Shown here one piece after another: positions 6,361 through 12,881 of a DNA stretch of 15,294 bases (the first letter of the stretch is position 1; every line of letters begins with the position of its first letter). The translations under genes and the position numbers were made by a program. The notes below the pieces were generated by a model that saw nothing but the letters and a program-made list of their open reading frames with translations, was not told the origin of the DNA and searched no databases. Source of the stretch: a virus (lineage: Duplodnaviria; Heunggongvirae; Uroviricota; Caudoviricetes); IMG/VR virus record IMGVR_UViG_2529292718_000014, positions 1 through 15,294 of that record, one strand, 5' to 3'.

Positions 6361-6780
6361 TTAAGAGGCTTTTTGTTTTTTCTTTCGTGCTAACTCTTCG
6401 TAAATTGCATTGTACTTCTGTTTTTTCTCTTCAAGAGTTTTTAAAAGTTCATCTGTCTCACTGTCAGGGAGCTCGTCCAGAAGGTCAATGATGATTTTTT
6501 GTCTTGGATTTAACTCCTGATAGAAACGTACCTGTCCACTTTCTTCTGTATCCTCTCCCAAAAGATAGGTTGGTGTTGTTCCTATTAGTGTTGCTAATTC
6601 CCTTAATTTCTCCCGGCGAGGAATTGTTTCGCCATTAAACCATTTGCTAACCGCTTTTGGTGTTAATTTCATTCGACGGGCAATTTCTGCCTGCCTTCCA
6701 TGTTGTTCATAACCAGCGTTTTCACAGGCTAGCGCAAGCCTACTGGCGAACTCTTTACGCGCTTTATCTTCATGAACCAT
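6361..6780 (-). CDS. Prophage repressor, XRE-family HTH (cI-like), 139 aa, without a recognisable S24/LexA-type autocleavage domain
   Basis: N-terminal HTH-like segment (…QAEIARRMKLTPKAVSKWFNGETIPRREKLRELATLIGTTPTYLLG…) with a charged helical C-terminus. Divergent from the Cro-like gene, with shared operator repeats between them. No Ala-Gly/Ser…Lys peptidase motifs seen. Confidence 0.82.
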   Translation of the reverse strand: MVHEDKARKEFASRLALACENAGYEQHGRQAEIARRMKLTPKAVSKWFNGETIPRREKLRELATLIGTTPTYLLGEDTEESGQVRFYQELNPRQKIIIDLLDELPDSETDELLKTLEEKKQKYNAIYEELARKKKQKAS

Positions 6781-6859
6781 AAGTTCAATGATATTCGCTC
6801 TTGAATGTACTGTCAGTTCTGTTATGGCATGTACTCAAAGTTCACATTGTGAGGGTGAT
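6781..6859. promoter_or_regulatory. OR-like divergent promoter/operator region (pRM/pR analogue)
   Basis: Intergenic between the divergent repressor and Cro-like genes. Two direct ATGTACT copies at 6805-6811 and 6829-6835. GAGGGTG Shine-Dalgarno precedes the cro-like ATG at 6860. Confidence 0.45.
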
Positions 6860-7114
6860 ATGAACCAGAAAACACTTGAAGATGTAATCAAAACTGTTCG
6901 CGTTGCTGTTGTGGCCGACGTTTGTGGTGTCAGCCAAAGAGCAATCTATAAATGGATGGATAACGGAAAATTGCCTCGCACAGAATATACCGGCGAAACA
7001 AATTACGCTGAAAAAATCGCTCTTGCATCAAACGGATTATTTTCTGCCGATGCAATTTTAACTATTGGCAGGAATAAAACTACTACGAAAAAGCTGATGG
7101 GAGTTGATTCATGA
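6860..7114 (+). CDS. Cro-like HTH regulator (84 aa from the ATG at 6860)
   Basis: Segment VADVCGVSQRAIYKWMDNGKLP is HTH-like. It is the first rightward gene, divergent from the repressor. The ORF-track start at 6788 would sit inside the operator region. Confidence 0.7.
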   Translation: MNQKTLEDVIKTVRVAVVADVCGVSQRAIYKWMDNGKLPRTEYTGETNYAEKIALASNGLFSADAILTIGRNKTTTKKLMGVDS

Positions 7115-7536
7115 AAATCAAGCATGAACACATCCGCATGGCGATGAATGCCTGGGCGCATCCGGACGGCGAAAAAGTACCGGCTGCGAAAATTACCAAA
7201 GCGTATTTCGAGCTGGGAATGACGTTCCCGGAACTGTATGACGACAGCCATCCGGAAGCCCTGGCTCGCAATACTCAGAAAATTTTCCGCTGGGTGGAGA
7301 AAGACACCCCTGATGCGGTTAAAAAAATTCAGGCGTTGTTACCAGCTATCGAAAAAGCAATGCCACCTCTGCTGGTGGCCCGAATGCGCAGTCATAGCTC
7401 AGCGTATTTTCGGGAACTAGTGGAGACGCGGGAACGACTGGTGAGAGACGCTGATGATTTTGTCGCAGTGGCGATCGCTGGTTTCAACCAGATGAATCGT
7501 GGTGGCCCTGCAGGAAATATTGTGGCTGTGCATTGA
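7111..7536 (+). CDS. CII/YdaT-like early regulatory protein (141 aa)
   Basis: Start overlaps the Cro-like stop (ATGA-type coupling). Position immediately after cro matches cII/YdaT-type genes of lambdoid and Rac-like prophages. Family assignment is by recollection only. Confidence 0.55.
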   Translation: MKIKHEHIRMAMNAWAHPDGEKVPAAKITKAYFELGMTFPELYDDSHPEALARNTQKIFRWVEKDTPDAVKKIQALLPAIEKAMPPLLVARMRSHSSAYFRELVETRERLVRDADDFVAVAIAGFNQMNRGGPAGNIVAVH

Positions 7537-8718: not shown

Positions 8719-9174
8719 GTGGCAAAAGTTTTTACACAAGAAGAGCGGGAAAAAATTAAAGGGCAGGTTGTTGAACTCGTACGCCAGAGTGGGCGCGAGA
8801 CGTTACGACAACTGGAAACTAAAACTGGGGCAACAAGATATCTGATGAGCGTTCTGGCCAGAGAGCTGGTTGCCAGTGGCGATGTATACAACTCTGGTTA
8901 CGGGTTATTCCCGTCTGAACAGGCGCGTAAGGACTGGCAAAATGCCCGTAAAAAGCTCTCAAGGGCAAAGCTGAAGAAACCATCTGCGGTTGATCCGGAC
9001 CTTATCTGGTCATTACCTGACGGAGAAATACGTCGCTACGACAGGCGTCAGAACATAATCTGTCGCGAGTGCCGGAAGAGCGAAGCTATGCAGCGTGTAC
9101 TGGCATTTTACCAGAATGGTTTTCGAGAGACATTCGGTGAACAGGTTGTGCATGAGGGAAATCATGGCGCTTAG
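8719..9174 (+). CDS. Hypothetical protein (151 aa, GTG start)
   Basis: AGGAGGG Shine-Dalgarno before the GTG at 8719. Protein-like composition, CxxC near the C-terminus. Sits where a helicase loader would be in lambda but shows no recognisable similarity to one; may be truncated. Confidence 0.5.
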   Translation: MAKVFTQEEREKIKGQVVELVRQSGRETLRQLETKTGATRYLMSVLARELVASGDVYNSGYGLFPSEQARKDWQNARKKLSRAKLKKPSAVDPDLIWSLPDGEIRRYDRRQNIICRECRKSEAMQRVLAFYQNGFRETFGEQVVHEGNHGA

Positions 9175-9189
9175 GCAATTGTGTAGACG

Positions 9190-9480
9190 CGTTGACGGCC
9201 GAAAGCATAGGAGGGTTGATTGATCGTTCTAGTTATGCTGTCAGAGCGAAAGCGCAGGAACTGGGTATCAATAGGATGTTAAGAGGGGGGGTTATAACCA
9301 ATCAAAAAAACATCCGCAAAGCGATATTGAGCTAGTGCGGAAGCTTCATCAGTGTGGAGTTCCCCGCCGTGATATCGCTGTAAAACGCGAAATGTCCTTG
9401 GGCATGATTAATCAGTACGTTTATTTCGACAGGAGAGCGCATGAAGTTTGACATCTAGACAACTGGGGGAGCGCTGAAAA
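9190..9480 (+). pseudogene. Decayed coding remnants (HTH-like peptide fragments in two frames) with a G7 homopolymer
   Basis: Short protein-like stretches interrupted by stops: …SSYAVRAKAQELGINRMLRGG… and …VRKLHQCGVPRRDIAVKREMSLGMINQYVYFDRR…. G7 run at 9285-9291. No intact ORF of 60 aa or more. Confidence 0.3.
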
Positions 9481-9599
9481 CGTTCTTAATTGATGTTGGA
9501 TTCGCTTTACATACTGAACTGTTTGGCTGAAAGACACGGTAGTATCACCAATCAAGGTGCTTTTGATAAACGCTTGTGTGTTTGTTTTTTAATCCATTG

Positions 9600-9628
9600 T
9601 TGACAACTAGGTTAGTTTTCCATATCAT
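9600..9628 (+). promoter_or_regulatory. Near-consensus sigma70 promoter for the ParA-like gene
   Basis: -35 TTGACA at 9600-9605, 17-nt spacer, -10 TATCAT at 9623-9628. The ATG at 9659 follows about 30 nt downstream, with GGTGG ahead of it. Confidence 0.55.
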
Positions 9629-9658
9629 CAATAAAAGTGTAAAACTAATGGTGGCGAT

Positions 9659-10705
9659 ATGACTAGTGAATCAAATGTTAATGCTCTGATAGAGCGTCAA
9701 TTCGAAGTTGCTGACGGTAATGTAAGAAGTCTTAATTTGCCGAAATATGATAAATATACAGTATGTAATTTACGGGGAGGCATTGGTAAGACATCTTTAA
9801 CTTTTAATCTGTCATATTTGGCGGATAACGCATTAATCGTGGATACGTGCCCGCAAGGAAATTTATCATATTTTTTTGACAATAATTATGCATCTTCGTC
9901 TAGCACAACTGCAAATGACCTCTTAATGCCTTATTTTGTTCCAGGGCTTGGATTTGCAACGCGTGCTGCAAAGCTAGTATCATCAACTAATGCTTGGTTT
10001 GCGGGCAAGAATAACTATTTTATTCAATCTGATAGTCAACTTTATCTTCTACCTACGCAAATGGCGAATGCTCTGGCTCAAGCCAGAACAATTTCTGGGG
10101 CTACTCAGCAGGTTGTTATTGATACAATTCTTTTTTCTCTGAAGAAAGAAATAGCCAGAGAAATGGTTGAAACTGGTACTACAAAAGCGTTAATTGATAC
10201 ATCACCTTTTTTCTCTGGAGCGACGCATTTATCTTGGCATGCAACAGATGCTTTAATAGTTCCAGTGAGGACAGATCAGCAATCGATTAATTCATTAAGA
10301 TTACTTATTGATACTCTGACTAAACCAACATCAGAATTTAGAAAGATAATGCCGTCTGATGGCCATACACCAAAAATTCAGATGGTGGTTATTACCCATT
10401 GCGGATGGTCAACAGTGGCAGGAGCAAGGAATAAACCAAATCAACAGACAAAAATGTACATCGAAGCTGTAAGAGAGGTAATTCGACAAAATATTAGTAA
10501 TTTTACAACAGATGATCCTAATAATCACATTGTGATTCTTGATGATTTTCTGGGTAGTGGCAGAATGTCAAGTGCTAAGTCTAAACCATTAGAGTTGTTA
10601 AATCCAGGAGATGCAATGACTGTGAATAGAGTTAGGACATCCGTGAATTTATCTGTTAACAAAATAAAAAATGAATTAAAGTTCATTCACAACTCCATAT
10701 GGTAA
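9659..10705 (+). CDS. Orphan ParA/MinD-family P-loop ATPase (348 aa) with variant deviant Walker A
   Basis: NLRGGIGKTS matches the deviant Walker A KGGxGK[ST], with Arg in place of the signature Lys. DTCPQGNLS matches the ParA D-x-D-P-Q-G-N motif. LIDTSP is a Walker B-like motif and ALIVPVRTDQQSINSLRLL a ParA-like segment. C-terminal extension of about 100 aa. The region is visibly AT-rich by eye. No ParB-like gene is adjacent. Confidence 0.8.
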   Translation: MTSESNVNALIERQFEVADGNVRSLNLPKYDKYTVCNLRGGIGKTSLTFNLSYLADNALIVDTCPQGNLSYFFDNNYASSSSTTANDLLMPYFVPGLGFATRAAKLVSSTNAWFAGKNNYFIQSDSQLYLLPTQMANALAQARTISGATQQVVIDTILFSLKKEIAREMVETGTTKALIDTSPFFSGATHLSWHATDALIVPVRTDQQSINSLRLLIDTLTKPTSEFRKIMPSDGHTPKIQMVVITHCGWSTVAGARNKPNQQTKMYIEAVREVIRQNISNFTTDDPNNHIVILDDFLGSGRMSSAKSKPLELLNPGDAMTVNRVRTSVNLSVNKIKNELKFIHNSIW

Positions 10706-10862
10706 ATGACATTTTATTTGAATAATCTGGATTGATAATTATTGTTACATTAATTGTTATTAATTCTAAATAATCCTATCGTTCTTCAGGATGAGATAAT
10801 TTATATTTATTTGTGTTGTGATTTTTTGAATTTATTTAGGTTTATGAACTGTTTTAGATGAA

Positions 10863-10982
10863 ATGAATCATGAATACGAAATTGTTGCGGTACTGATAAC
10901 GAGGAAAGACCTCTGCGAGGTACGAATCCGAACCGGCCAGACGGAGGTCGCTGTCTTCACAGCTTACGAACCTGAGGAGTAA
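10863..10982 (+). other. GC-rich element: candidate 39-aa small ORF or 5' part of a structured small RNA
   Basis: ATG at 10863 to TAA at 10980-10982 encodes MNHEYEIVAVLITRKDLCEVRIRTGQTEVAVFTAYEPEE with a weak Shine-Dalgarno. The segment is much GC-richer than its AT-rich flanks. It is followed by a perfect 8-bp hairpin with GAAA loop (10991-11010) and the terminator at 11050-11072. Confidence 0.3.
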
Positions 10983-11049
10983 GAGACCAGGCGAGGGAGA
11001 AATCCCTCGCCACCTCTGATGTGTCAGGCATCCTCAACGCACCCGCACT

Positions 11050-11072
11050 TAACCCGCTTCGGCGGGTTTTTT
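11050..11072 (+). terminator. Rho-independent terminator (copy A of an identical 23-bp element)
   Basis: TAACCCGCTTCGGCGGGTTTTTT: 6-bp GC stem ACCCGC/GCGGGT, UUCG loop, T6 tract. An identical 23-mer occurs at 12885-12907. Confidence 0.7.
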
Positions 11073-11073
11073 A

Positions 11074-11120
11074 TTGGTTGACAAAATTATGAATATGCAC
11101 CAATATCTTGGTTGACAAAA
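11074..11120 (+). promoter_or_regulatory. Two direct TTGGTTGACAAAA repeats (34 bp apart) upstream of the cassette; candidate promoter -35 elements and/or operator
   Basis: 13-bp perfect repeats at 11074-11086 and 11108-11120, each containing TTGACA. The -10 matches at 17-bp spacing are weak (CAATAT, GGATTA), so an operator role is also plausible. Confidence 0.4.
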
Positions 11121-11155
11121 GTCGTTTTTTGCACGGATTAGGCGGAGAAGTGTCT

Positions 11156-11749
11156 ATGCAGAACCATCCATTCCCTTGGGAGTTCTTTCCTGAGTTAACA
11201 GAGGTGCGTTTAACCATTATAGCTGAGGAGTTGCTCAGGATACAGGATATTACTCATGAGTTATTGTCATCGCCCTATGATGATAATTACACTCGTGGTG
11301 GTTGTACATTTGGGCGTCAGCGGCAGGCGTTGCTACAAATGTGCGTACGAAAGACATATGACTGGTTAAGACTACTTAATCCTGGCATGGATCTTACGTT
11401 TTCAATTGGGAATGTCCCTATTCGTTTCTTTACTGATGACGCAGATAACCCCAAGAAACGCGGTTTTTTCAAAAGAAATGATGCTGATCGACTCTTTGAG
11501 TCAGAGGAGACTACTCCAACTATGCATCGCTTTGTGGTTGAAAAGCCTGAATTTGAAGGCGAGGGTGGTAGAGTCATTTTTAATGGCTATAACGTGTTTG
11601 GTGAGATCGTGTCAACTTGGACATATGGTGCGGACCGTGTTGTTATGCTGAACTCTGTCGATGATGTACCTCCAGCACCGGTACCTATCGAACTAGAACC
11701 TATCAGTGCGTCTAAGACTGAGAAGGAAAAGAAACAAAATAGCAAATAG
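11156..11749 (+). CDS. Hypothetical protein (197 aa), first gene of the accessory cassette
   Basis: ATG at 11156 with GGAG 8 nt upstream; the TTG start in the ORF track lies inside the upstream repeat and is unlikely. Protein-like composition with an acidic, Pro-rich C-terminal tail. No recognisable catalytic motif or family. Confidence 0.7.
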   Translation: MQNHPFPWEFFPELTEVRLTIIAEELLRIQDITHELLSSPYDDNYTRGGCTFGRQRQALLQMCVRKTYDWLRLLNPGMDLTFSIGNVPIRFFTDDADNPKKRGFFKRNDADRLFESEETTPTMHRFVVEKPEFEGEGGRVIFNGYNVFGEIVSTWTYGADRVVMLNSVDDVPPAPVPIELEPISASKTEKEKKQNSK

Positions 11750-11759
11750 TGGGTGAAAT

Positions 11760-12881
11760 GTGTTTAACGGTACTAATTTAAGACTTGCTCGTCTGTATCA
11801 CGAGCTATCTCTGGAGCAGGTTGCTGAGAAGGTTGAAAAAACACGCCAGTATGTACAGCGACTGGAGTCTGGTTCAGCTACTCCATCCCCAGAGCTTATA
11901 AATAAATTAGCCGAGGTTTTGCGCGTGAAGCCCGCCTTTTTCGAAGGGCAGGAACATTCTCCTGTTAATGAAGAGATTGTACATTTTCGTAAACGCGCCT
12001 CGACAAGGATGTCAACGAAGCTATCAACACTCGCTAAGGCTGAGTTTTATCGTCGTTTTATTGATGTATTTGAAGATAACCTTAATTTGTCACCTGTTCG
12101 ATTTCCTGAATTTCGTGTCCATACACAAGAAGATATCGAGCGAGCGGCAGAAAAATGTCGTATTGAGTGGGGCTTAGGCTTTGGCCCAATTGAAAATATG
12201 ACTCGCCTTGCCGAGAAACTTGGGGCGTTTGTTACTTCATTTGACTCCGTTTCGGATGAAGTAGATGCACTGTCTGTTCCTCTACGAAGGCCTTTTATTG
12301 TTCGAAATACAGCTAAAAATTCACCTTGTAGGCAACGCTTTGATATTGCTCATGAGGTTGCCCATTTGATTCTTCATGAAGGAATTTCTACTGGGGATAG
12401 ATTAACTGAATCCCAGGCAAACCGTTTTGCCTCTGCTCTGTTGCTTCCCAGAACGTCGATGGCGAAATATTTTCCAAGACCTGTGGGGGGGAGGATAAAT
12501 TGGCAGGGACTAAGCCAATTTAAGTTGACATGGAAAGTAAGTAAGGCTGCCATTGTTTACAGGGCTCATCAATTAGGACTTTTGACTGATGAGCAGTACA
12601 GAACTGCATTTATGGGGTTGAAACGGAAAGGGGAAGCTATTGATGAAAAAGAAGATTATCTAATCCCTCATGAGCGTCCTGAGTTATTCCGTCGGGCTTT
12701 ATCGTTTTTATTTGAAGAGTTAGGATACGACCCACAGCGTATAGCTGATGAAATGGATATAGAAGTGGACATTTTTTATGAGTTAGTAGGAGATGATCTT
12801 CCTGCGGTTCATGAACTGCCAGGAAGTGGTGATGTTGTTTCACTACAATCTTACCGAACTCTTAGAGGCAAAATTCACTAG
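11760..12881 (+). CDS. XRE-family HTH fused to ImmA/IrrE-type (COG2856, M78-like) zinc metallopeptidase domain, 373 aa
   Basis: N-terminal HTH (LRLARLYHELSLEQVAEKVEKTRQYVQRLESG). Central HEXXH motif in RQRFDIAHEVAHLILHEG, followed by a downstream acidic region typical of ImmA/IrrE proteins. Starts 10 nt after the 197-aa gene, so likely co-transcribed. Followed by terminator copy B. Confidence 0.85.
   Translation: MFNGTNLRLARLYHELSLEQVAEKVEKTRQYVQRLESGSATPSPELINKLAEVLRVKPAFFEGQEHSPVNEEIVHFRKRASTRMSTKLSTLAKAEFYRRFIDVFEDNLNLSPVRFPEFRVHTQEDIERAAEKCRIEWGLGFGPIENMTRLAEKLGAFVTSFDSVSDEVDALSVPLRRPFIVRNTAKNSPCRQRFDIAHEVAHLILHEGISTGDRLTESQANRFASALLLPRTSMAKYFPRPVGGRINWQGLSQFKLTWKVSKAAIVYRAHQLGLLTDEQYRTAFMGLKRKGEAIDEKEDYLIPHERPELFRRALSFLFEELGYDPQRIADEMDIEVDIFYELVGDDLPAVHELPGSGDVVSLQSYRTLRGKIH

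What the first reader, a model, noticed from the sequence alone, without database searches (positions are those of the whole stretch)
9480..10860. AT-rich segment encoding an orphan ParA/MinD-like ATPase with Arg-substituted Walker A and its own consensus promoter
This segment is visibly more AT-rich than its flanks (judged by eye, not computed), suggesting separate acquisition. It encodes a 348-aa ParA-fold ATPase (RGGIGKTS, DTCPQGN, LIDTSP) with a C-terminal extension of about 100 aa, driven by a near-consensus promoter (TTGACA, 17 nt, TATCAT). No ParB or centromere-binding partner gene is adjacent, and the signature lysine of the deviant Walker A (KGG) is replaced by Arg. Orphan ParA-like ATPases usually position cargo or act as switches; one sitting in a prophage accessory region beside a putative defence cassette is unusual and may belong to the same system.
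Basis: partly seen in the sequence, partly recalled or inferred. Interest (0 to 1): 0.6.

Follow-up and report, generated by a model that had tools for sequence, protein, structure and literature searches.

The report
Solitary self-regulated ParA-like prophage gene
An intact, strongly conserved ParA-type ATP-binding protein with two altered catalytic residues travels between very different bacteria as a single gene with its own promoter and a palindromic control site; it has no partition partner and is most plausibly a prophage-carried phage-exclusion factor, though no experiment has tested this.

Summary
The ORF (9659-10705, 348 aa), the AT-rich composition, the motifs, the TTGACA-17-TATCAT promoter and the lack of a ParB are real. 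The '100-aa C-terminal extension' is not: the whole protein is one ParA/McdA fold with an N-terminal helix and internal insertions.

The gene belongs to a tight, isolated family, 50-67% identical across at least seven bacterial groups, with dN/dS about 0.02. Arg replaces the signature Lys and Cys replaces the switch-I catalytic Asp in 147 of 149 loci examined.

It is solitary. No neighbour recurs in 86 genomic loci, it is almost absent from plasmids, and its GC is below its flanks in 67 of 70 loci. RosmerTA, the downstream cassette, occurs without it and vice versa, so they are separate modules in a variable prophage cargo slot.

New here: a palindrome (TTAGTTTTCCA-N15-TGTAAAACTAA) brackets the -10 box and is conserved across phyla. 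A wider prophage clade has arrays of CCTGC repeats with a 19-bp period and usually sits just downstream of a cI-like repressor.

A remote relative, GiPD474, is a proven single-gene prophage defence.

Best reading: an autonomous, autoregulated DNA-binding ATP switch used for phage or mobile-element exclusion. The function is inferred, not shown.

The parts
9452..10880 (.). AT-rich cargo segment found only in ParA-bearing prophages. It replaces other cargo between the small DNA-binding-protein gene remnant and hokD.
   Evidence: GC is 0.32-0.38. The left flank, up to about 9451, is homologous to a phage 'DNA-binding protein' gene in about 900 E. coli genomes. Homology to ParA-less prophages resumes at 10881/10888 inside hokD. 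The identical 1381 bp occur in 14 of 5426 complete E. coli genomes.
9600..9628 (+). Sigma-70-type promoter: TTGACA, 17 nt, TATCAT.
   Evidence: It matches 11 of 12 positions and is the best site in the region. It is conserved in the ~95%-identical variants L104/L107/L113, whose DNA homology to the window begins at 9588-9600.
9612..9648 (.). Palindromic operator-like site, TTAGTTTTCCA-N15-TGTAAAACTAA, bracketing the -10 box and the likely transcription start.
   Evidence: It is the only copy in the window. The same inverted repeat occurs in 46 of 88 unique upstream regions of family members from several phyla, against 0.26 expected from shuffles and 1 of 88 downstream controls. With up to 2 mismatches it occurs in 69 of 100. 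Spacer classes are 17/18 and 38/39 nt.
9650..9654 (+). Shine-Dalgarno-like GGTGG, 4 nt before the ATG.
   Evidence: Read from the sequence. A GGTG or GGAGG lies at the same place in homologous loci.
9659..10705 (+). 348-aa ParA/McdA-fold NTP-binding protein. Walker A is R39-GGIGKT-S46, switch I is D62-T-C64-PQ, Walker B is D180, and the C-terminal residue is W348.
10706..10880 (.). AT-rich 3' tail of the segment. It has no ORF of 50 aa or more, no terminator and no RNA-family match, and it is not shared with the ~95%-identical variants.
   Evidence: The first terminator downstream is the hok one at 11051-11068.

Best explanation
The segment is an autonomous one-gene module made of a promoter, a palindromic operator and an ORF. 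It was inserted into a variable cargo slot of a Rac-like lambdoid prophage.

Shown:
- The product is an intact ParA/McdA-fold protein under strong purifying selection.
- The P-loop Lys and the Walker B Asp are kept.
- Across the family, Arg replaces the signature Lys and Cys replaces the switch-I Asp. That Asp is the residue changed in the McdA(D38A)-ATP structure.
- The gene has no partner gene anywhere and is almost absent from plasmids.
- It is independent of the neighbouring RosmerTA system.

Inferred:
- The protein works as an ATP-bound sandwich dimer with slow or externally triggered hydrolysis. That makes it a switch rather than a motor.
- The dimer binds the inverted repeat that overlaps its own -10 box. 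This sets its own dose in whatever host it lands in.

Most likely biological role (inferred, not shown): a factor expressed in the lysogen that excludes superinfecting phages or other mobile DNA. GiPD474 of Gifsy-1, a remote ParA-like relative, does this as a single gene.
For: Fold and motifs. McdA D38 aligns with C64 of the query (6non 'IDADPQSN', 6nop D38A 'IDAAPQSN', query 'VDTCPQGN').

Family signature: RGG(I/V)GK(T/S) plus DxC(P/A)Q in 85 of 86 genomic and 62 of 63 viral loci.

Constraint: 55-67% identity across phyla at a near-constant length. dN/dS is 0.022 at dS 1.55.

Isolation: only 179 of 1.84 billion cluster representatives reach E<=1e-3.

Solitary and horizontally moved:
- No recurrent neighbour.
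- 133 different Pfam families among 139 nearest neighbours.
- Gene GC is below flank GC in 67 of 70 loci, with a median difference of -0.098.

Not partition:
- 5 of 72,556 plasmids carry it, and the two Aeromonas plasmids inspected each carry a separate 214-aa ParA gene with a small ORF beside it.

Module limits run from the -35 box to the stop codon.

Operator:
-.
- Half-sites co-vary.
- Spacer classes differ by about 21 bp.
- Only 2 of about 19 mismatched positions would be G-U pairs (my own count from the list). This argues against an RNA hairpin.

Context on mobile elements and next to defence genes:
- A variable cargo slot.
- RosmerTA next door in the window.
- A complete Bunzi system next to the ~95%-identical variant.
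- A homologue beside attP/int in Ralstonia phage RsoM1USA.
- A cI-like repressor within four ORFs in 28 of 63 viral loci; in 21 it is upstream and co-directional.

Precedent: GiPD474 (PMC12724215) is a single ParA/MinD-like prophage gene next to the repressor. It gives about 5 logs of protection against T4, Alf5 and FO1. Its sequence also has Cys at the switch-I position. hhalign against the family profile gives 97.8-99.9% probability.
Against: - There is no experimental evidence for this family.
- PADLOC has no model for it.
- In chromosomal loci the nearest neighbours are mostly housekeeping genes. Only a handful are defence genes, so there is no clear defence-island enrichment.
- The very strong sequence conservation is unusual for proteins in an arms race.
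- GiPD474 is only 24% identical over 210 aa. It scores no better against the narrow family profile than generic ParAs do, so the functional transfer is weak.
- That the protein itself binds the palindrome is inferred only from the absence of any co-travelling partner. It has no recognisable HTH.
- The ATPase consequences of the R and C substitutions are inferred from other ParA/MinD proteins.
Confidence: 0.42

Rival explanations
1. A ParB-independent DNA-positioning or tethering system. The ParA-like protein reads its own cis repeats (a palindrome in the core clade, 19-bp iteron arrays in the wider clade) as a centromere. It anchors or segregates the DNA that carries it, for example an excised prophage or a small plasmid, on the nucleoid.
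For: Repeat arrays directly upstream of a parA gene are the classic layout of type Ib partition loci (established knowledge). 34 of 44 wider-clade loci have 3 to 12 same-strand CCTGC repeats with a 19-bp period. The palindrome is conserved across phyla. Structural neighbours include P1 ParA and V. cholerae ParA2, which bind DNA.
Against: Most copies are single genes in chromosomes, among housekeeping genes, where segregation of the locus is pointless. Only 5 of 72,556 plasmids carry it, and the two plasmids inspected have a separate ParA gene of their own. The repeats overlap the -35 and -10 boxes, as operators do. The window holds a single two-arm site, not an array. The catalytic Asp needed for the ATPase cycle that drives partition is missing.
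Confidence: 0.15
2. A mobile-element-borne regulator of host physiology. It would be a Soj/MinD/FleN-like ATP switch that titrates a conserved host protein (DnaA, a division or transcription factor) to benefit the element. Phage exclusion would be at most a side effect.
Against: There is no indication of which host target. The distribution is patchy and rare (14 of 5426 E. coli genomes). Placement in prophage immunity or cargo slots beside defence systems is more typical of exclusion genes.
Confidence: 0.15
3. A third component or regulator of the adjacent RosmerTA (RmrT/RmrA) defence system or of the hok locus.
For: It lies about 450 bp upstream of RmrT on the same strand. No terminator lies between the ParA stop codon and the hok terminator at 11051-11068.
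Against: RmrT/RmrA with an intact hokD occurs at 99.3-99.7% identity without the ParA gene in at least 8 genomes. Outside the E. coli prophage and its identical viral-contig copies, none of the family loci examined has RmrT/RmrA beside it. The ~95%-identical variant sits next to Bunzi instead. The hok terminator and the RmrT upstream region are the same with or without the ParA gene. The insertion destroyed hokD.
Confidence: 0.03
4. A decaying remnant of a plasmid or phage-plasmid partition operon that lost its ParB.
For: The generic annotation is 'ParA family protein'. The signature Lys and the catalytic Asp are absent, which could look like loss of function.
Against: dN/dS is 0.02. Length is constant at 342-350 aa. 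About 80 to 110 columns are invariant across phyla, including the R and C positions. There is no ParB in any locus.
Confidence: 0.01

Closest known systems
GiPD474 (STM474_RS13505, WP_000368620.1) of the Salmonella Gifsy-1 prophage: a single-gene ParA/MinD/Soj-like anti-phage protein (Bosma, Noireaux & Bowden 2025, PMC12724215)
   Same: - A single gene with no partner.
- A ParA-type AAA_31 fold of similar size (361 vs 348 aa).
- Prophage-borne and horizontally spread.
- Cys in place of the switch-I catalytic Asp (VIDACPQSN vs VDTCPQGN).
- It sits directly downstream of, and co-directional with, the prophage repressor, as the wider clade of this family does.
- The profile match covers 303 columns.
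   Different: - Only 24% identity over 210 aa.
- It keeps the signature Lys (NNKGGVGKT).
- No palindrome or iteron array was seen upstream.
- It fails the paper's own family threshold of 70% identity or more.
- Its anti-phage activity is demonstrated; for the window gene nothing is tested.
- Its mechanism is also unknown.
McdA (cyanobacterial carboxysome-positioning ParA-type ATPase; PDB 6non/6noo/6nop)
   Same: - It also lacks the signature lysine in Walker A (SGGQGKT).
- It is a ParA without a ParB.
   Different: - McdA keeps the catalytic Asp (D38).
- It works with McdB and carboxysome cargo in a dedicated operon.
- It is not on mobile elements.
- The window protein has Arg at the signature position, about 100 extra residues and no partner gene.
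Type Ia partition ATPases (P1 ParA, F SopA) as autorepressors
   Same: - A ParA-fold protein whose gene is preceded by an inverted repeat overlapping its own promoter.
- They are structural neighbours (3ez2, 3ez9, 7npd).
   Different: - Type Ia proteins carry an N-terminal domain of about 100 aa with a winged HTH. They act with ParB and a separate parS centromere on plasmids.
- Here the N-terminus is a single helix (residues 3-18). There is no ParB, and almost all copies are chromosomal or in prophages.
Type Ib partition loci (pSM19035 delta/omega, TP228 ParF/ParG) with repeat arrays upstream of parA
   Same: The wider clade has arrays of short direct repeats with a fixed period directly upstream of the ATPase gene. 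The delta protein is among the structural hits (2oze).
   Different: In type Ib loci a small ParB-type protein (omega, ParG) binds the repeats. No such gene is present here: the next gene is usually on the opposite strand within about 50-130 nt.

Membership tests
ParA/MinD (SIMIBI-class deviant Walker A) ATPase superfamily | ParA/MinD alpha/beta fold | tested here: met
   [not shown]
ParA/MinD (SIMIBI-class deviant Walker A) ATPase superfamily | P-loop GK[ST] and Walker B Asp | tested here: met
   G43-K44-T45 and D180 are invariant.
ParA/MinD (SIMIBI-class deviant Walker A) ATPase superfamily | Signature lysine of the deviant Walker A (KGGxGK[ST]) | tested here: not met
   Arg at position 39 is invariant in the core family. 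It is present in 147 of 149 loci.
ParA/MinD (SIMIBI-class deviant Walker A) ATPase superfamily | Switch-I catalytic Asp (Soj D44, MinD D40, McdA D38) | tested here: not met
   Cys64 aligns with McdA D38. DxC(P/A)Q occurs in 147 of 149 loci.
Type I ParABS partition system | Adjacent ParB / centromere-binding protein gene | tested here: not met
   No recurrent neighbour of 45 aa or more in 86 genomic loci, or of 60 aa or more in 63 viral loci. ParB does not appear among the neighbour families listed (top 25 shown).
Type I ParABS partition system | Carried on low-copy plasmids, phage-plasmids or near a chromosomal origin | tested here: not met
   5 of 72,556 plasmids carry it, and the two plasmids inspected have a separate ParA gene. 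1 of 50,697 phage records carries it. Chromosomal contexts are heterogeneous.
Type I ParABS partition system | Cis-acting centromere repeats | tested here: inconclusive
   A two-arm palindrome (core clade) or 19-bp-period repeat arrays (wider clade) lie upstream. They overlap the promoter and could be operators only.
GiPD474-type single-gene prophage defence | Sequence membership (the authors used 70% identity and 70% coverage or more) | tested here: not met
   24% identity over 210 aa, E 3e-11. Against the narrow family profile it scores E 1e-12, like generic ParAs.
GiPD474-type single-gene prophage defence | Single ParA-like gene in a prophage region expressed in the lysogen, next to the repressor | tested here: inconclusive
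   The window gene lies in the replication-to-nin cargo slot with its own promoter, not next to the repressor. Wider-clade members lie downstream of cI-like repressors in 21 loci.
GiPD474-type single-gene prophage defence | Protection against phage infection | not testable with these tools
   Needs efficiency-of-plating assays.
RosmerTA (RmrT/RmrA) defence system | Obligate co-occurrence with RmrT and RmrA | tested here: not met
   RmrT (6.9e-92) and RmrA (4e-201) lie at 11108-12881. They occur without the ParA gene in at least 8 genomes. The ParA family occurs without them in every locus examined outside the E. coli prophage and its identical viral-contig copies.
Phosphoribosyltransferase-type defence effectors (PADLOC PRTase_III-A, ShosT) | PRTase fold / PRPP-binding loop | tested here: not met
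   [not shown]

The most novel reading that the evidence does not exclude
This would be a ParB-independent, sequence-reading ParA. The ParA-fold protein has a rewired catalytic site (Arg for the signature Lys, Cys for the catalytic Asp). It recognises short DNA repeats itself: a phased palindrome in one clade and 19-bp iteron arrays in another. The resulting long-lived ATP-dimer-DNA state would serve both to set its own expression and to exclude incoming phage or plasmid DNA. That would make it a self-contained one-gene immunity module that has spread across bacterial phyla.
Probability: 0.22. Interest if true: 0.8.

Novelty: new variant of a known kind. Interest (0 to 1): 0.6.

Why it matters
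ParA/MinD ATPases are textbook two-component positioning machines, made of an ATPase and a partner that stimulates it.

This family is different in several ways:
- It breaks two of the superfamily's catalytic rules.
- It has no partner gene.
- It carries its own conserved DNA site.
- It moves alone between bacteria from Proteobacteria and Firmicutes to Planctomycetes.

If it is a defence or exclusion factor, it and GiPD474 would define a class of single-protein ParA-like immunity that current defence-finding tools miss, since PADLOC has no model for it.

If it is instead a partner-less DNA-tethering device or a regulator of the host, it would still extend what the ParA fold is known to do.

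In practical terms, it sits in prophages of enterotoxigenic E. coli strains and could affect phage typing or phage therapy.

Tried and rejected
1. PRTase reading of residues 262-311 (weak PADLOC and Pfam hits). Rejected by the structure and fold searches.
2. Separate C-terminal domain. Rejected.
3. Conserved partner gene. All-against-all clustering of neighbouring ORFs in 86 genomic and 63 viral loci found none, apart from integrases (5 loci) and cI-like repressors in the wider clade.
4. Integron-cassette idea for the Vibrionaceae loci. No attC-like repeat arrays.
5. Known RNA element. Only sub-threshold isrK and rsmX matches at the hok terminator. No tandem repeats.
6. RNA-hairpin reading of the palindrome. 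Disfavoured: the left arm lies in the promoter spacer, mismatches are rarely G-U, and the spacer classes differ by about 21 bp.
7. Co-variation between protein columns and half-site variants (TT vs CC). Confounded by phylogeny and uninformative.
8. Further copies of the palindrome in the window. None.
9. Defence-island enrichment from the nearest neighbours. Only a few hits (restriction-modification, Cas6, PbeA), so not convincing.
10. BFVD fold search. Nothing useful.
11. Literature searches for the accession and for ParA-like defence. These found only the GiPD474 paper.
12. DNA search of isolated phages. Only the hok part of the query matches.
Full report
**1. What is at the coordinates**

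The window holds an ATG ORF at 9659..10705 (+) of 348 aa.

GC falls to 0.32-0.38 between about 9400 and 11000. The flanks are 0.45-0.59.

The promoter TTGACA-17 nt-TATCAT lies at 9600-9628. It matches 11 of 12 positions and is the best site in 9100-11300. The total count of promoter-like sites in that region is not above chance. A GGTGG lies 4 nt before the ATG.

No terminator follows the ORF. The first one downstream, at 11051-11068, belongs to a truncated hok gene. There are no tandem repeats and no RNA-family match above threshold.

**2. Surroundings**

The window is part of a Rac-like lambdoid prophage. Searches identify these features:
- an integrase and a RecE-like exonuclease to the left;
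- a repressor (6361-6780, minus strand);
- YdaS-like and YdaT-like genes;
- a replication gene;
- a DUF977 gene (8719-9174);
- a frameshifted small DNA-binding-protein gene (9192-9451);
- the ParA-like gene;
- a hokD remnant (10881-10982);
- RmrT (11156-11749) and RmrA (11760-12881), which form a RosmerTA defence system (E 6.9e-92 and 4e-201);
- DUF968, with RusA and antiterminator Q beyond it in the fuller copy of the prophage.

The identical 1381 bp occur in 14 of 5426 complete E. coli genomes. All copies are chromosomal, and several strains are enterotoxigenic (ETEC) going by their strain designations.

**3. A cargo slot, and independence from RosmerTA**

Other E. coli prophages with the same backbone carry different genes between DUF977 and hokD:
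- small DUF4014/DUF551 genes (L088);
- a cassette of an ATP-binding protein, a STAS-like protein and a hypothetical protein (L089);
- DUF4406/DUF4752 plus two reverse-strand genes (L090).

Backbone homology runs to about 9451 on the left. It resumes at 10881/10888, inside hokD. So about 9452-10880 is the ParA-specific segment, and its arrival removed the 5' half of hokD.

RmrT/RmrA with an intact hokD occurs without the ParA gene at 99.3-99.7% identity in at least 8 genomes. Outside this E. coli prophage and its identical copies, no family locus examined has RmrT/RmrA beside it. The two are therefore separate modules that happen to be neighbours.

**4. The protein**

Pfam sees only AAA_31 over residues 34-223. 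That is probably why a C-terminal 'extension' was inferred. Other evidence shows one continuous fold:
- PHROG 164 (ParA-like) covers residues 32-334.
- The AlphaFold model (pLDDT 87.2, pTM 0.88) continues the beta-alpha pattern to a final helix at 333-347.

The extra length comes from an N-terminal helix (3-18) and from insertions around 63-117 and 126-172. The weak PADLOC and Pfam PRTase hits at 262-311 fall on a ParA strand and loop and are spurious.

**5. The family**

More than 700 homologues were found. The best 120 are 342-388 aa (nearly all 342-353) and 61-96% identical to the query.

A genome scan returned 80 loci. They come from:
- Gamma-, Beta-, Alpha- and Delta-proteobacteria;
- Magnetococcales and Mariprofundales;
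- Lachnospiraceae, Selenomonas, Clostridium and Paenibacillus;
- Synergistetes;
- Planctomycetes;
- cyanobacteria;
- Bacteroidetes.

In a library of 1.84 billion cluster representatives only 179 reach E<=1e-3 and only 30 reach 1e-30. The family is therefore a small, sharply bounded island within ParA sequence space.

About 80 to 110 columns are invariant across the two alignments. They include the following:
- N37-L-R-G-G-I-G-K-T-S46;
- D62, C64 and Q66;
- I179-D-T-S-P-F-F;
- P202-V-R-T-D;
- D295-D and G301-R;
- the C-terminal W348.

Arg at the signature-lysine position and Cys at the switch-I position occur in 85 of 86 genomic and 62 of 63 viral loci. The PDB profile alignment puts C64 opposite McdA D38. 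That is the residue mutated to Ala in the 'McdA(D38A)-ATP complex' entry 6nop.

From established knowledge of Soj (D44A) and MinD (D40A), loss of this Asp traps the ATP-bound dimer. I therefore infer slow hydrolysis, or hydrolysis triggered from outside. This is an inference, not a measurement.

The gene is not decaying. Against the ~95%-identical variants, dN is 0.035 and dS is 1.55, giving dN/dS of 0.022.

**6. Solitary and horizontally moved**

- Clustering all ORFs of 45 aa or more within 3.5 kb in 86 loci found no recurrent neighbour. The largest clusters are an ABC-type ATPase (6 loci) and an integrase (5 loci).
- The 139 nearest neighbours fall into 133 Pfam families, many of them housekeeping. 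A few are restriction-modification, Cas6 or PbeA.
- Individual contexts include a ParE/PaaA2 pair in Burkholderia pseudomallei, a cluster of small ORFs including a weak HicA-like hit in Desulfovibrio, and an integrase in Massilia.
- Gene GC is lower than flank GC in 67 of 70 non-redundant loci, with a median difference of -0.098.
- Only 5 of 72,556 plasmids carry it. All five are from Aeromonas. The two inspected each also carry a 214-aa ParA gene with a small ORF beside it.
- Only one of 50,697 phage records carries it. This is Ralstonia phage RsoM1USA gp55, right beside attP and int.

Together this argues strongly against a partition role.

**7. The module carries its own control site (new here)**

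DNA homology between the window and the ~95%-identical variants is 82.5% at the nucleotide level. It begins at the -35 box (9588-9600) and ends at the stop codon. Promoter and ORF therefore move together.

Within the promoter, TTAGTTTTCCA (9612-9622) and TGTAAAACTAA (9638-9648) form an inverted repeat around the -10 box.

Frequency of the repeat:
- With 9-nt arms, at most 1 mismatch and the core T[AT]G[TA]T[TC][TC], it occurs in 46 of 88 unique upstream regions.
- Shuffles predict 0.26, and 1 of 88 downstream controls has it.
- With at most 2 mismatches it occurs in 69 of 100.

It is found in Enterobacteriaceae, Desulfovibrionaceae, Magnetococcales, Mariprofundales, Bacteroidetes, Lachnospiraceae, Negativicutes and Planctomycetes. 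The DNA between and around the arms is unrelated in these groups.

Half-sites co-vary: TAGTTTTAC/GTAAAACTA, TAGTTTTCC/GGAAAACTA, TAGTTCCGC/GCGGAACTA and TTGTTTTAC/GTAAAACAA.

Spacers fall into two classes, 17/18 nt (43 loci) and 38/39 nt (10 loci). The difference is about two helical turns.
- In the short class the arms bracket the -10 box.
- In the long class they bracket the whole promoter.

Three observations favour a DNA operator over an RNA hairpin. The left arm lies in the promoter spacer. Only 2 of about 19 mismatched positions would be G-U pairs (my own count from the list). The spacer classes are phased.

No other gene travels with the module. The simplest reading is that the protein binds its own promoter. 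This is inferred and not shown. The N-terminal helix, with near-invariant R13 and Q14, is a candidate reading element.

**8. The wider clade**

Viral contigs hold 63 loci. About 17 belong to the core family and about 46 are 32-37% identical to the query.
- 28 of the 63 loci have a cI-like repressor (HTH_3 plus Peptidase_S24) within four ORFs. In 21 it is upstream and co-directional, recalling the cI-rexAB arrangement in lambda.
- 34 of 44 unique loci have 3 to 12 same-strand CCTGC repeats in the 300 nt upstream. The mean is 5.0, against 0.6 on the other strand and in the background. The gap between repeats is 19 bp (135 gaps), or alternating 9 and 19 bp. These repeats overlap promoter-like hexamers.

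Different clades thus carry different repeat motifs in the same place. This is consistent with a DNA-reading protein that has co-evolved with its site.

The ~95%-identical variant of the window gene lies next to a complete Bunzi system, with BnzA and BnzB at E about 1e-206.

**9. Closest characterised relative**

A literature search found GiPD474 (PMC12724215). It is a single gene next to the Gifsy-1 repressor and has a ParA/MinD/Soj-like fold. It gives about 5 logs of protection against T4 and Alf5, and resistance to FO1, in both Salmonella and E. coli. Its mechanism is unknown.

I recovered its sequence from a viral contig, using a knock-out primer arm given in the paper. It has NNKGGVGKT, so the Lys is kept, and VIDACPQSN, so it has Cys as in this family.

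It is only 24% identical to the window protein over 210 aa.
- Against the broad family profile, hhalign gives 99.9% probability over 303 columns. That profile contains a GiPD474-like sequence.
- Against the narrow profile it gives 97.8% and E 1e-12. This is similar to generic ParAs.

GiPD474 is therefore a precedent and a remote relative, not the same family.

**10. Verdict**

The 'extension' is wrong, and the link to RosmerTA is not supported.

The element is an autonomous, strongly constrained, probably self-regulated one-gene ParA-fold module with a non-canonical catalytic site. It sits in a prophage cargo slot.

Estimated probabilities for its role:
- phage or mobile-element exclusion expressed in the lysogen: about 0.4;
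- ParB-independent DNA tethering or partition: about 0.15;
- host-directed regulation: about 0.15.

None of these has been tested experimentally.

Noticed in passing
window 11108-12881 (RmrT probably starts at 11156; RmrA at 11760): A complete RosmerTA defence system: RmrT at E 6.9e-92, and RmrA at E 4e-201 with HTH_3 and Peptidase_M78 domains. It lies directly downstream of the hok remnant. It occurs with an intact hokD and without the ParA gene in at least 8 other E. coli genomes.
   Followed up: partly
window 10863-10982, terminator at 11051-11068: hokD is truncated at its 5' end by the ParA segment. A chimeric 39-aa ORF (MNHEYEIVAVLI + TRKDLCEVRIRTGQTEVAVFTAYEPEE) remains but lacks the transmembrane part. 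The hok 3' region gives a sub-threshold Rfam isrK match (31 bits against a cutoff of 50).
   Followed up: partly
window 9192-9451: A small phage 'DNA-binding protein' gene, 70-78% identical at the DNA level to genes in about 900 E. coli genomes and plasmids. Here it is split into 47-aa and 38-aa ORFs, possibly at the A7 run near 9303-9309 (frameshift site not pinned down).
   Followed up: partly
L126-L160 (viral contigs), about 25-200 nt upstream of the ParA-like gene; for example L136 5788-5893: Arrays of 4-12 same-strand CGACCTGCA-type repeats with a strict 19-bp period (or alternating 9 and 19 bp). They fill the gap between a cI-like repressor gene and the ParA-like gene and overlap promoter-like hexamers. 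Loci L120 and L122 show GATAGACA repeats instead.
   Followed up: partly
L104-L106, L113, L148 (viral contigs), about 7.2-10.5 kb in locus coordinates: The ~95%-identical variant of the ParA-like gene lies convergent with a complete Bunzi defence system (BnzB E 1.2e-207, BnzA E 4.3e-206). A LexA-like repressor gene lies on its other side.
   Followed up: partly
L089 2245-4202 (E. coli F2_407_2_2 and many other genomes): The same prophage cargo slot (DUF977 to hokD) holds a three-gene cassette in many E. coli genomes: an ATP-binding protein (376 aa), a STAS-like protein (104 aa) and a hypothetical protein (172 aa). The ATP-binding protein has no PADLOC match; the other two were scanned only against PHROGs. 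It is a candidate uncharacterised accessory or defence cassette.
   Followed up: no
L090 2030-3513 (E. coli 504239): Another occupant of the same slot is two reverse-strand genes (310 aa and 184 aa). They match PHROGs of unknown function (15676 and 15250); the 310-aa gene has no PADLOC match and the 184-aa gene was not scanned.
   Followed up: no
L092 6048-6818 (Ralstonia phage RsoM1USA gp56): A DUF3800 protein follows the ParA-like gp55 at the attP-proximal end of this P2-like phage. It has no PADLOC match.
   Followed up: no
window 9612-9648: The half-site GTTTTAC differs by one base from the chromosomal parS half-site GTTTCAC as I recall it. In parS the half-sites abut, while here they are 15-17 nt apart. 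This is a lead recalled from memory and was not tested.
   Followed up: no
window 6361-7536: The immunity region is Rac-like. It has a divergent repressor (HTH_3, minus strand), a YdaS-like HTH gene and a YdaT-family gene (PF06254). In the related UMNF18 prophage (L001) the YdaT gene is annotated as frameshifted and a RelE/ParE toxin gene is present.
   Followed up: no
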